A stretch of DNA of 64,000 nucleotides from a bacterium (lineage in GTDB: Bacteria > Myxococcota_A > Bradymonadia > UBA7976 > UBA1532). How positions within the stretch are numbered: the first letter of the stretch is position 1; every line of letters starts with the position of its first letter. The position numbers were made by a program, and so were the translations under genes. The notes below the pieces were generated by a model, which was not told the DNA's origin, made no database searches, and worked only from the letters and a program-made list of their open reading frames with translations. The DNA is taken from assembly GCA_030426085.1 (NCBI GenBank), contig JAUHYW010000060.1:1-64000 (forward strand). Reading direction: 5' to 3'. Shown piece by piece: positions 13,053 through 15,413 of the stretch.

Positions 13053-15413
13053 ATGGACAACCGCCGTGAACGGGAGCTGGTGCTGGCCCCCAACGAATAC
13101 GCCTACGTGCTCGACACCACCAAGGGCCACATCAACTGCTATGTGGGCCCCAACAAGACCAGCCTGGCCCAGACCGACCAGCCGGTGGTGTTCAACAGCG
13201 GCTCGAAGCGCTTCGAGCCGGCGGTGCTCGAGGACGCGGTGCGCCTCTTCGCCACCGCCCCGGCCAACTGGTACATCGCGCTGAAGAACCCCGCCCGCGA
13301 CCGGGTGCACCCCAACCCGGGGGTGGCCAGCGTGGCCCCCGAGCTGCTCGTCGGGCTCAAGCACAACGTGCCGGGGCCGGCGGCGTTCGCCCTGTGGCCG
13401 GGGCAGATGGCGCGGGTGATCGAGGGCCACCGGCTGCGGGCCGACGAGTACCTCTACGTGCGCATCTACGACGCCGGGGCCGCCGCCGAGGCCGGCTGGC
13501 GGGCGCTGGGGCTGGCCGACGACCACGCCGAGCAGCCGCCCCGGTTCGCGGTGGGCCAGGGCTACGTGATCAAGGGCACCGACACCCGGTTCTACATCCC
13601 GCCGACCGGGGTCGAGGTCGTGCCCGAGGACGGGGGGAACTTCGTGCGGGCGGCGGTGCGGCTCGAGCGGCTGGAGTACTGCGTGCTGGTGGGCCACGAC
13701 GGCCAGCGGCGCACCATCCGGGGCGAGGCGATCGTCTTCCCCGGGCCCGACGAGCGGTTCGTGGTGCGCGAGGGGCGGCGCAAGTTCGAGGCGATCGAGC
13801 TCAGCGAGACCACCGGGCTGCACGTCAAGGTCACCGCGCCCTACACCGAGGCCGACGGCACCGCGCGCCGGGAGGGCGAGGAGCTGTTCATCACCGGCAG
13901 CGGGGTCATCTACTTCCCCCGCGACGCGCACGCGATCATCCGCCAGGGGGGCCGGGCGCTGCACCAGGCGGTGGCCATCCCCCGGGGCGAGGGGCGCTAC
14001 GTGCTGAGCCGGCACACCGGCGAGGTGGCGCTCAAGCGGGGGCCGGCGATGTTCCTGCCCGACCCCCGCCACGAGGTGATCATCCGCCGGGTGCTCGACG
14101 ACCGGGAGTGCGCGCTGCTCTTCCCGGGCAACCCCGACGCGCGGGCCTTCGGCCGGGCGGACGGGCGGCGGCCGGCGGCCGAGCCGAAGCCGGGGCGCAA
14201 GAGCCGGGGCGAGGGCGGGTCGGGCGCGCCGCTGGCGGTGGTCCGGCCGGCGTTCGAAGGGCCCCGCACGATCACCCTCGACACCCGCTACGCGGGCGCG
14301 GTGCGGGTCGACGTGCGGGCCGGCTTCGCGGTGCAGGTGGTCGACCAGAGCGGCGCCCGGCGGGTCGAGCAGGGGCCGACGGCGCTGTTGCTGGGCTACG
14401 ACGAGATGCTCCAGCCGCTGACGCTGTCCACCGGCACCCCCAAGTCCGACGCCCGCCGGCTGGAGACCGCCTACTTGCAGACCACCGGCAACAAGGTCGG
14501 CGACCGGCTGCTGCTGGTGACCCGGGATCAGGTCCGGGCCGAGCTGACCCTGGCCTATCGGGTCGACTTCGACGGCCCGCCCGAGCGGTGGTTCGCCGTC
14601 GAGGACTACGTCAAGCTGCTGTGCGACCACGCCGGCTCGATGATCAAGGCCCGGGCCCGCAAGCTGGACGTCGTGGCGTTGCAGGGCGACCTGACCCCGG
14701 TGGTGCGGGATCTCATCCTGGGGCCCCGGGGCGAGGGCGGCGAGCGGCCGGGGCTGGGGTTCTCCGAGAACGGCATGCGGGTCTACGACGTGGAGGTGCT
14801 CGCGCTCGAGATCGTCGACGAGGCGGTGCGGGCGCTGCTCGACGAGGCTCAGCTCGACGCGATGCAGCAGGCGCTGGCGGTGGGCGCCCGGGAGGCCGAG
14901 GTGGCCCGCCGACAGCGGCTGGAGGACGCCGAGCGGGCGCTGGATCGGGCGCTGGACGAGACCGCCGCGCTGCGGGCGGGCATCGCCGCCGAGCAGGCCC
15001 GCCGGGGCCATACCGAGGCCACCGCCGAGCGGGAGCGGCGGCTGGCCCTGGCCCGGATGGAGGCCGAGCAGGACCGGCTCGAGCTGGAGGCCGAGCTGGC
15101 GCTGCGGGCCCGGCGGCTGGCGGCAGAGGAGGCCGAGGACGCCGCCCGGCTCGAGAGCCGGCGGGCGAAGCAGGCGCTCGACCTGGAGGCGCTCGCCGCC
15201 CGGGTCGAGGGCGCGGTGCGGGCGGCGCAGGCGTTCGACCCCCACGTCGTGCACGCGGTCAACCGCCTCGGCGACCAGCAACTCGCCGCCGCCCTGGCCG
15301 AGAACTTCGGCGAGCTGGCGGCGGTGGAGGGCCGGGGGCTCTTGGAGACCGCCCGCAAGTTCCTCGACTTCGTGCCCGCCAGCCTCATGCCCCAGCTCCG
15401 CGAGCCGGGCTGA
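13053..15413 (+). CDS. Major vault protein (MVP) homolog: MVP repeat domains + SPFH-like shoulder + coiled-coil cap-helix
   Basis: N-terminus [28 protein letters not shown]... parallels MVP repeat 1 ([26 protein letters not shown]). Shoulder region LAYRVDFD...[30 protein letters not shown] parallels MVP LAYNWHFE...[27 protein letters not shown]. The C-terminal ~150 aa is an Ala/Arg/Glu-rich coiled coil like the vault cap-helix. Confidence 0.75.
   Translation: [786 protein letters not shown]

What the first reader, a model, noticed from the sequence alone, without database searches (positions are those of the whole stretch)
13053..15413. Bacterial homolog of the eukaryotic major vault protein
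The 786-aa product aligns by eye along its whole length with eukaryotic MVP. The MVP-repeat N-terminus shares the VLD...VGP..T motif, the SPFH-like shoulder shares blocks LAY..F and F.V.D.V.....IK, and there is a long Ala/Arg/Glu coiled-coil cap-helix. MVP builds the 13-MDa vault particle and is essentially a eukaryotic protein. Only sporadic bacterial homologs are known, in a few myxobacteria and cyanobacteria, and they are functionally uncharacterised. Here the gene sits in native-looking high-GC DNA with a bacterial RBS. This suggests a bona fide bacterial vault-like nanocompartment.
Basis: partly seen in the sequence, partly recalled or inferred. Interest (0 to 1): 0.85.

Follow-up and report, generated by a model that had tools for sequence, protein, structure and literature searches.

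The report
Bacterial major vault protein homologue
This is a real bacterial relative of the protein that builds eukaryotic "vault" particles, but hundreds of bacterial species carry the same gene and it was described in silico years ago, so this copy is an ordinary, still untested member.

Summary
Window 13053-15413 (+) is an intact 786-aa gene with a GAGGAGG ribosome-binding site and host-like codon usage. It hits Pfam MVP_shoulder (E 4.6e-15), Vault_3 (at cutoff), and rat/human MVP (phmmer 5e-14, family profile 2e-37). An AlphaFold2 model matches solved vault chains end to end (Foldseek E 4e-33). The layout is beta-repeat array, SPFH-like shoulder, one 138-residue helix, then a short helical C-terminus.

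The "sporadic homologues" premise is wrong. An exhaustive search gives 1081 clusters at 50% identity (555 at E<=1e-30). Two peptide patterns alone find relatives in 356 species genomes: Myxococcota, Riflebacteria, Sericytochromatia, Bacteroidota, Chloroflexota and others. Bacterial MVPs were reported in 2013 and 2019.

Points specific to this copy:
- It has about seven repeats, against nine in rat.
- It has no membrane anchor.
- No gene partner is conserved across 80 loci.
- No vPARP, TEP1 or vault RNA lies in the 64 kb.

It most likely self-assembles into a cytoplasmic vault-like cage. That is inferred from the architecture and not shown. Verdict: new member of a known, experimentally uncharacterised family. 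Interest is moderate to low.

The parts
13039..13045 (+). Shine-Dalgarno sequence GAGGAGG, 7 nt upstream of the start codon
   Evidence: Read directly from the sequence.
13053..15413 (+). Coding sequence of the 786-aa MVP-family protein, stop codon included
   Evidence: ORF and translation. GC3 0.96. Identical protein P0001 is in public data, and homologues at 44-84% identity cover 97-100% of the query.
13053..14486 (+). N-terminal MVP-type beta-repeat array (aa 1-478), best estimate seven repeats. The first strand of each repeat starts near aa 15, 73, 132, 208, 254, 314 and 425.
   Evidence: AF2 models. Foldseek of the 480-aa model hits only MVP repeat structures, E 1e-17, TM 0.55, rmsd 5-6 A over about 430 columns. 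Vault_3 covers aa 422-466. HMMER alignments to R3-R9 of rat/human MVP.
14166..14279 (+). Low-complexity, poorly conserved loop (aa 372-409) inside the R8-like repeat. It sits where the human sequence has its own poorly aligned loop.
   Evidence: pLDDT <50 in both models. Lowest conservation of the repeat region, 0.47. Aligned opposite the loop at human aa ~423-455.
14487..14819 (+). SPFH-like shoulder domain (aa 479-589)
   Evidence: Pfam MVP_shoulder at aa 480-589, E 4.6e-15. pLDDT 93-96. Secondary Foldseek hits to prohibitin, HflK/C, stomatin, erlin and flotillin at E 1e-5 to 1e-7.
14820..15233 (+). Cap-helix equivalent (aa 590-727): one uninterrupted Ala/Arg/Glu/Leu-rich helix of 138 residues
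   Evidence: DSSP helix 590-727. Aligned to the human MVP cap-helix, about aa 640-788. Composition.
15234..15410 (+). Conserved helical C-terminal region (aa 728-786), positionally equivalent to the cap-ring
   Evidence: Helices 730-759 and 763-770. Family conservation 0.67 with the consensus [28 protein letters not shown]. Homology to the eukaryotic cap-ring was not demonstrated.

Best explanation
The gene encodes a genuine prokaryotic member of the major vault protein family in the chromosome of an uncultured, high-GC Myxococcota-like bacterium. The protein is cytoplasmic, with no signal peptide, lipobox or transmembrane segment. It carries every module that drives vault-shell formation in eukaryotes: an array of MVP beta-repeats (about 7, against 9 in rat), an SPFH-type shoulder, a 138-residue cap helix and a conserved C-terminal tail.

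The most likely mechanism is the one known for MVP and other SPFH cages. Many copies pack side by side. The long helices bundle into a cap, and the shoulders and repeats form the wall of a hollow cup. Two cups may then join through the very conserved N-terminal repeat, giving a closed vault-like shell that would be shorter than the rat particle. It is encoded as a stand-alone gene and needs no dedicated partner.

Shown here: homology, domain order, predicted fold, absence of a membrane anchor, absence of a conserved neighbour, and wide distribution. Inferred: oligomerisation, symmetry, closure into a full vault, and any cargo or physiological role.
For: - Pfam MVP_shoulder E 4.6e-15 and Vault_3 at cutoff.
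- Only MVP chains are hit in the PDB by sequence, 5e-14, and by family profile, 2e-37.
- The AF2 model has pLDDT 79, and 92-96 across aa 130-370 and 420-590, in the order repeats, shoulder, long helix.
- Foldseek matches rabbit, human and rat vault chains full length at E 3.6e-33 to 1e-28. SPFH cage proteins follow at 1e-5 to 1e-7.
- The repeat-array model matches only MVP repeats, E 1e-17, TM 0.55.
- The highest 19-residue hydropathy window is 1.1, so no transmembrane segment.
- The first 60 aa are the most conserved part of the family, at 0.80. R1 makes the waist contact in the rat vault (established knowledge, Tanaka 2009).
- No neighbour is shared across 80 loci from different taxa. This fits a self-sufficient homo-oligomer.
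- Established knowledge, recalled and not checked here: MVP alone suffices to build vaults. PMC9778704 (title seen) reports vault-like particles made from MVP in E. coli.
Against: - No assembly data exist for any bacterial MVP in the literature I could search.
- The N-terminal 40 residues, which should make the waist contact, are predicted with very low confidence in both monomer models.
- The helix shows no significant global heptad or 3.6-residue hydrophobic periodicity.
- It has two fewer repeats than rat MVP, and identity to eukaryotic MVP is only about 21%. Lateral contacts and symmetry could therefore differ.
- All other characterised prokaryotic SPFH cages sit on a membrane (PMC12624060).
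Confidence: 0.6

Rival explanations
1. It forms a single dome (a 'half vault') that sits with its open N-terminal rim on the cytoplasmic membrane. Like HflK/C, QmcA, stomatin or flotillin cages, it would fence off a membrane patch and would not close into a free two-cup vault.
For: The shoulder plus helix matches membrane SPFH cage proteins (prohibitin, HflK/C, stomatin, erlin, flotillin, QmcA) at E 1e-5 to 1e-7. The vault is described as the exception among SPFH complexes in being closed and membrane-free (PMC12624060). In the closest relatives the gene lies next to an MMPL transporter and a secreted Cys-rich lipoprotein.
Against: There is no transmembrane segment, lipobox or hydrophobic N-terminus; the maximum hydropathy window is 1.1 and the N-terminus reads [10 protein letters not shown]. 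About 480 aa of soluble beta-repeats replace the membrane anchor, as in eukaryotic MVP. The MMPL and lipoprotein neighbourhood is confined to relatives at >=70% identity and is absent from the other loci.
Confidence: 0.2
2. The protein keeps the MVP fold but does not build a cage. It would act as a monomer, small oligomer or filament-like scaffold in the cytoplasm.
For: There is no experimental evidence of assembly. No significant amphipathic periodicity was found in the helix. The helix is the least conserved module, at 0.45. Asgard MVP multimer models in the literature have only modest confidence, ipTM 0.525 for a decamer (PMC12962969).
Against: Every module used for shell formation is retained in order across hundreds of lineages, with strongly conserved R1, shoulder and C-terminal tail. 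The predicted repeat array superposes on the array in assembled vaults at rmsd about 5-6 A over about 430 columns. An isolated 138-residue helix is unlikely to be stable without partners (inference).
Confidence: 0.13
3. The gene is eukaryotic contamination or a very recent transfer from a eukaryote, and not a native bacterial gene.
For: MVP is best known from eukaryotes. Some cyanobacterial MVPs more than 50% identical to eukaryotic ones have been interpreted as transfers from eukaryotes (PMC3762200).
Against: GC3 of 0.96 matches the flanking genes. A Shine-Dalgarno site precedes the start. The flanks are ordinary bacterial genes: MMPL, P450, TRAP transporter, ectoine genes, IleRS, TonB receptor. 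The same locus occurs in related MAGs at 70-84% identity with synteny. Identity to eukaryotic MVP is only about 21%, against 44-84% to hundreds of bacterial proteins.
Confidence: 0.02
4. It is a TolA-like or 'colicin uptake' envelope-spanning protein, as some databases have annotated bacterial MVP homologues because of the Ala/Glu/Arg-rich helix.
For: Earlier BLAST-based work noted similarity between the helix and TolA domain II (10.1101/872010; PMC3762200).
Against: There is no N-terminal membrane anchor. No TolA-family hit appears in Pfam or NCBIfam. The helix similarity is compositional, and the rest of the protein is MVP repeats plus shoulder. No tol-pal genes are adjacent.
Confidence: 0.02

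Closest known systems
Eukaryotic major vault protein (rat/human MVP; PDB 4V60, 4HL8, 7PKZ, 9BW5, 9Z4W)
   Same: The domain order is the same: beta-repeats, SPFH-like shoulder, long cap helix, C-terminal tail. Foldseek matches full length at E about 1e-33, and the family profile scores E 2e-37. Motifs are shared in R1, R8, R9 and the shoulder. A disordered loop sits in the R8-like repeat. There is no membrane anchor.
   Different: Identity is only about 21%. It has about 7 repeats against 9; the two middle repeats align equally well to R4-R5 and R6-R7. It is 786 aa against 861-893 aa. The Pfam Vault, Vault_2 and Vault_4 models do not reach threshold. No vPARP, TEP1 or vault RNA is present in the 64-kb window. 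Assembly has not been shown.
Previously reported bacterial MVP homologues (Enhygromyxa salina A0A0C2D5V5, Plesiocystis pacifica, Corallococcus coralloides, Saprospira grandis, Microscilla marina; Daly 2013, Sokolskyi 2019)
   Same: It belongs to the same family. The Enhygromyxa salina and Nannocystis genomes encode proteins 44-46% identical over nearly the full length. Like the window protein, these are uncharacterised and known from sequence only.
   Different: The window protein belongs to a shorter subgroup (about 770-830 aa) from uncultured Myxococcota, Bradymonadia and related MAGs. Its shoulder starts at aa 480, against aa 547-679 in longer members. Its nearest relative is 84% identical (L010).
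Asgard archaeal MVP homologues (Nat Microbiol 2026, PMC12962969)
   Same: They are prokaryotic MVP-fold proteins with repeats, shoulder and cap helix, and with fewer repeats than the rat protein. They too are known only from prediction.
   Different: The Asgard proteins have five repeats and were modelled as about 10-mers. Half of them group with eukaryotes in that paper's tree. The window protein has about seven repeats, and its placement relative to eukaryotes was not tested here.
Membrane SPFH cages (HflK/C, QmcA, stomatin, prohibitin, flotillin, erlin)
   Same: They share an SPFH-type alpha/beta domain followed by a long helix that forms the wall and cap of a cage (PMC12624060).
   Different: Those proteins are anchored to a membrane and lack the N-terminal repeat array. 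The window protein has no anchor and no NfeD or FtsH partner nearby.

Membership tests
Major vault protein family (MVP) | SPFH-like shoulder domain (Pfam PF11978) | tested here: met
   E 4.6e-15, 56.1 bits against a cutoff of 25, covering aa 480-589 and profile positions 3-118 of 118. pLDDT is 93-96.
Major vault protein family (MVP) | N-terminal array of MVP-type five-stranded beta-repeats | tested here: met
   Vault_3 scores 28.8 bits, equal to its cutoff; Vault is sub-threshold. The AF2 repeat-array model has pTM 0.73. It matches only MVP repeat structures, E 1e-17 to 1e-12, with the next hit at E 0.2. The number of repeats differs: about 7 against 9.
Major vault protein family (MVP) | Long cap helix directly after the shoulder | tested here: met
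   A single DSSP helix spans aa 590-727. HMMER aligns it to the human MVP cap helix, about aa 640-788.
Major vault protein family (MVP) | C-terminal cap-ring segment | tested here: inconclusive
   A conserved helical tail at aa 728-786 is present. Sequence alignments to MVP stop at about aa 741, human 788, so homology of the tail is not demonstrated.
Major vault protein family (MVP) | End-to-end colinearity with solved MVP chains | tested here: met
   Foldseek gives E 3.6e-33 to 8.6e-29, 725-860 aligned columns and TM 0.43-0.50 for twelve vault entries.
Major vault protein family (MVP) | Self-assembly into a C39-type half shell and a 78-mer vault | not testable with these tools
   No multimer modelling or experiment was available. 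No published bacterial assembly was found.
Eukaryote-type vault ribonucleoprotein (MVP + vPARP + TEP1 + vault RNA) | Accessory components vPARP (PARP/vWA/INT), TEP1 (TROVE/NACHT/WD40) and vault RNA | tested here: not met
   Pfam scans of about 30 window genes found no PARP, TROVE, NACHT or WD40 protein. The 64 kb has no Rfam hit of any kind. None appeared next to homologues in seven other genomes. Only local context was examined, not whole genomes.
Membrane-anchored SPFH proteins (stomatin/prohibitin/flotillin/HflK/C) | N-terminal transmembrane helix, hairpin or lipid anchor | tested here: not met
   The maximum Kyte-Doolittle 19-residue mean is 1.1, at aa 538 inside the shoulder. The N-terminus [10 protein letters not shown] is polar and has no lipobox.
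Membrane-anchored SPFH proteins (stomatin/prohibitin/flotillin/HflK/C) | SPFH/Band 7 core domain | tested here: met
   Structural matches to prohibitin, HflK/C, stomatin, erlin and flotillin at E 3e-7 to 1e-5 over about 220-290 columns. Pfam Band_7 itself is not hit by the window protein, though it is weakly hit by a family member.
TolA / colicin-uptake proteins | N-terminal membrane anchor plus TolA C-terminal domain | tested here: not met
   No TolA-family hit in Pfam or NCBIfam and no transmembrane segment.

The most novel reading that the evidence does not exclude
This seven-repeat protein and its many relatives build true closed, membrane-free vault-like shells in bacterial cytoplasm. Those relatives comprise at least 555 clusters at 50% identity and at least 356 species in about 10 phyla, far more than the 'few Bacteria' still quoted in 2026. 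Vaults would then be an ancient, widespread prokaryotic nanocompartment with a wall height that varies with repeat number. Cultivable carriers such as Nannocystis exedens DSM 71 and Enhygromyxa salina DSM 15201 would offer a simple system for finding out what vaults do and where eukaryotes got them.
Probability: 0.4. Interest if true: 0.7.

Novelty: new member of a known kind. Interest (0 to 1): 0.35.

Why it matters
The function of vaults has been an open question since 1986, and their evolutionary origin is debated; an Asgard origin was proposed in 2026. Bacterial MVPs are stand-alone genes, with no vPARP, TEP1 or vault RNA in the contexts examined. They could show what the bare shell does and how repeat number sets particle size, and they could supply new protein cages for engineering.

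This window adds little that is new. The family was already reported, the exact protein is already in public data, and nothing in the locus points to a cargo or function.

The useful by-products are three. The family is far larger and taxonomically broader than the literature states. No gene partner is conserved. This subgroup has a shortened (about 7-repeat) wall.

Tried and rejected
- phmmer of the N-terminal 210 aa alone against the PDB gave no hit at E<=10. The R1-R3 similarity therefore rests on colinearity and fold only.
- hhalign of each putative repeat profile against the others gave probabilities below 10%. It was uninformative for counting repeats, so the count was made from the first strand of each repeat and from the HMMER alignments.
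- Fourier analysis of hydropathy in the helix, for the window sequence and the family mean, found no 3.5-3.67-residue periodicity above shuffles (657/2000 and 1040/2000 shuffles reached the observed value). It neither supports nor excludes helix bundling.
- A search with a human MVP fragment, meant to fetch full-length eukaryotic MVPs, returned only C-terminal fragments of at most 581 aa. No full-length bacterial/eukaryotic phylogeny or residue-level R1-R2 mapping was made.
- PADLOC and PHROGs scans of the MVP and its neighbours gave no hits, so there is no support for a defence-system or phage origin.
- The Rfam scan of the window gave no hits.
- The promoter and terminator consensus scan of 12500-15800 found nothing, as expected at 75% GC.
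- All-against-all clustering of flank ORFs from 89 loci found only generic recurrent families: Ser/Thr kinases in 14 loci, response regulators in 10, ABC ATPases in 7. A conserved operon partner was rejected.
- Long family members were scanned for fused cargo domains and none was found.
- Eukaryotic contamination and TolA-like readings were considered and rejected (see the rival explanations).
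Full report
**1. The observation**

The window is uniformly GC-rich, 70-80%. A single long ORF with the codon signature of a real gene spans 13053-15413 on the + strand; GC at codon positions 1/2/3 is 0.78/0.49/0.96. The ATG at 13053 is preceded by GAGGAGG at 13039-13045. Its product is 786 aa. The stop-to-stop frame extends upstream to a GTG at 12915.

**2. Is it an MVP homologue?**

- Pfam gives MVP_shoulder at E 4.6e-15 (aa 480-589, the full profile) and Vault_3 exactly at its cutoff (aa 422-466). 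There is also a sub-threshold Vault repeat. NCBIfam has no model for it.
- phmmer against all PDB sequences returns only major vault proteins, E 5e-14, plus one noise hit at E 0.9. The alignment is colinear from the repeats through the shoulder into the cap helix.
- A profile of 68 bacterial homologues raises this to E 2e-37.
- An AlphaFold2 model has mean pLDDT 79, and above 90 for most of aa 130-370 and 420-590. It shows beta-repeats to aa 472, an alpha/beta shoulder at 480-587, one continuous helix at 590-727, and two short helices to aa 770.
- Foldseek places twelve solved vault chains first (rabbit, human brain, human cage, rat). These score E 3.6e-33 to 1e-28 over 725-860 columns at about 21% identity.
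- Next come the mouse R1-R7 crystal structures at about 1e-12, then the SPFH cage proteins (prohibitin, HflK/C, stomatin, erlin, flotillin, QmcA) at 1e-5 to 1e-7 for shoulder plus helix.
- A second model of aa 1-480 with a deeper alignment (pTM 0.73) matches only MVP repeat arrays. Values are E 1e-17, TM 0.55, rmsd 5-6 A over about 430 columns; the next unrelated hit is at E 0.2.

**3. Anatomy and differences from the rat protein**

Each MVP repeat opens with a characteristic strand; human examples seen are TALHLKAL, TALHLRAR, EGIYVQDV and NAAVQVYD. The window protein has seven such strands:
- EYAYVLD at aa 15
- WYIALKN at aa 73
- EYLYVRI at aa 132
- EYCVLVG at aa 208
- GLHVKVT at aa 254
- GRYVLS at aa 314
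- FAVQVVD at aa 425

HMMER aligns aa 305-345 to R8 and aa 425-478 to R9, and aa 163-216 to R3-R4. The two middle repeats align equally well to R4-R5 and to R6-R7. The best estimate is therefore seven repeats against nine. This is an inference, because no residue-level structural alignment was available.

The R8-like repeat carries two helices and a 38-residue low-complexity loop at aa 372-409, with pLDDT below 50 and the poorest conservation. It aligns opposite the poorly aligned loop at human aa ~423-455. The protein has no hydrophobic segment (maximum 19-residue hydropathy 1.1) and no signal peptide or lipobox, so it should be cytoplasmic and soluble.

Within the family the first 60 residues are the best conserved (0.80). 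The helix is the least conserved (0.45), and the C-terminal tail is again conserved (0.67). Oddly, aa 1-40 have the lowest model confidence in both predictions. This would fit a segment that orders only in an oligomer, as R1 does at the vault waist, but that remains unexplained.

**4. Surroundings**

Upstream on the + strand lie a response regulator, an MMPL transporter, a 223-aa protein of unknown function and a cytochrome P450. An 85-aa ORF (12640-12897) is transcribed divergently from the MVP gene. Downstream lie a 1379-1427-aa Cys-rich repeat lipoprotein, an ectoine/hydroxyectoine cluster with a TRAP transporter, and then housekeeping genes: IleRS, citrate synthases, transhydrogenase, a Ser/Thr kinase and a TonB-dependent receptor.

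There is no PARP, TROVE, NACHT or WD40 protein, no Rfam RNA of any kind, and no second MVP copy.

The arrangement MMPL, 224-aa protein, 85-aa ORF, MVP, Cys-rich protein recurs only in the nearest relatives, L010 at 84% and L003 at 70% MVP identity. Seven gene-annotated contexts from more distant homologues are all different. All-against-all clustering of ORFs from 89 loci finds no recurrent neighbour beyond generic kinases, response regulators and ABC ATPases. The gene therefore behaves as a stand-alone unit. PADLOC and PHROGs give nothing.

**5. How common is it?**

- The word-indexed search returned 4473 proteins at E<=1e-5 among its 8000 scored candidates. The best 120 are 44-100% identical over nearly the full length, and many are already labelled 'major vault protein' by JGI.
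- The exhaustive HMMER scan of 1.84 billion cluster representatives gives 1081 clusters at E<=1e-3 and 555 at E<=1e-30.
- Two back-translated peptide patterns alone found relatives in 356 of the species-representative genomes.
- The best 80 of those comprise 33 Myxococcota, 9 Riflebacteria, 4 Sericytochromatia, 4 Bacteroidota and 3 Chloroflexota. The Myxococcota include the cultured Nannocystis exedens DSM 71, N. punicea, N. radixulma and two Enhygromyxa salina strains.
- The remainder include 2 Desulfonema, 2 Vulcanimicrobiota and single Spirochaetes, Gemmatimonadaceae and Synergistia bins.
- Longer family members have their shoulder 70-200 residues further along, so repeat number or insert size varies in the family. 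No fused cargo domain was seen.

**6. What is already known**

- Daly et al. 2013 (PMC3762200) listed MVP-like proteins in Corallococcus, Plesiocystis, Microscilla, Saprospira, Flexibacter and Herpetosiphon, and modelled them as vault-competent.
- Sokolskyi 2019 (bioRxiv 10.1101/872010) analysed Enhygromyxa, Saprospira, Microscilla and Moorea proteins.
- A 2023 preprint reported phage-encoded MVPs.
- A 2026 Nature Microbiology paper reported ten Asgard homologues with five repeats. It still states that bacterial homologues are known 'in only a few Bacteria' (PMC12962969).
- I found no experimental study of any prokaryotic MVP.

**7. Mechanism**

The best-supported reading is that the protein self-assembles like MVP and its SPFH relatives. 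Lateral packing of shoulders and long helices would give a capped cup whose wall is the repeat array. Two cups might then pair through the conserved N-terminal repeat.

What is shown is homology, module order, predicted fold, solubility and gene autonomy. Oligomerisation, symmetry, closure and function are inferred. With about seven repeats the wall would be shorter than in the rat vault (inference).

The main rival is a single dome abutting the membrane, as in all other characterised prokaryotic SPFH cages. The lack of any anchor argues against it. A non-assembling scaffold cannot be excluded. Contamination or recent eukaryotic transfer, and a TolA-like role, are effectively ruled out by composition, context, synteny in relatives and domain content.

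**8. Verdict**

The claimed rarity is not. The finding is a new member of a known, in-silico-described but experimentally untouched family, in a locus that gives no functional clue.

It is not surprising to a vault specialist. Cultured carriers are better entry points than this uncultured genome. Interest is 0.35.

The most novel reading not excluded is a widespread prokaryotic vault compartment with variable wall height. I give it about 0.4 probability, and it would merit about 0.7 if shown.

Noticed in passing
window 19737-27435 (- strand): An ectoine/hydroxyectoine gene cluster. It comprises a PhyH-type hydroxylase (19737-20651), a TRAP transporter DctP/DctM/DctQ (20639-23629), ectoine synthase EctC (23562-23996), a class-III aminotransferase with a ~190-aa N-terminal extension (23965-25800) and an amino-acid kinase (25801-27435). 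It suggests a halotolerant or marine host.
   Followed up: partly
window 15453-19736 (+), probable start ~15597: A 1379-1427-aa Cys-rich repeat lipoprotein (lipobox LALGC, one EGF_CA hit). Many CxxGxxDGGDGxC-type repeats are interrupted by Cys-poor modules. It lies directly downstream of the MVP gene only in the closest relatives (52% identity in L010, 36% in L003). No link to MVP is evident.
   Followed up: partly
window 12640-12897 (-): An 85-aa ORF transcribed divergently from the MVP gene. It is 73-75% identical in the two nearest relatives and has no Pfam, PADLOC or PHROGs hit. It is absent from the other 80 loci.
   Followed up: partly
window 13053-13172 (aa 1-40 of the MVP homologue): This is the most conserved stretch of the family, yet it has the lowest AlphaFold confidence in two independent monomer models (pLDDT 32-51). 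It may order only in an oligomer.
   Followed up: partly
window 36159-38517: Two divergently transcribed citrate synthase paralogues lie side by side. The second carries an N-terminal MerR/HTH_17 DNA-binding domain, an unusual enzyme-regulator fusion.
   Followed up: no
window 1-64000: No Rfam family reaches its gathering score anywhere in the 64 kb, so no tRNA, riboswitch or sRNA family is detected.
   Followed up: no
proteins P0121-P0267 and P0132-P0255: Prokaryotic MVP homologues range from about 730 to 980 aa. The shoulder starts anywhere from aa 480 to aa 679. Repeat number or insert size therefore varies widely within the family, and no recognisable extra Pfam domain accounts for the added length.
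   Followed up: partly
literature against databases: A 2026 paper still describes bacterial MVP homologues as known 'in only a few Bacteria'. The sequence databases hold at least 555 strongly matching clusters at 50% identity and at least 356 species genomes across about 10 phyla.
   Followed up: yes
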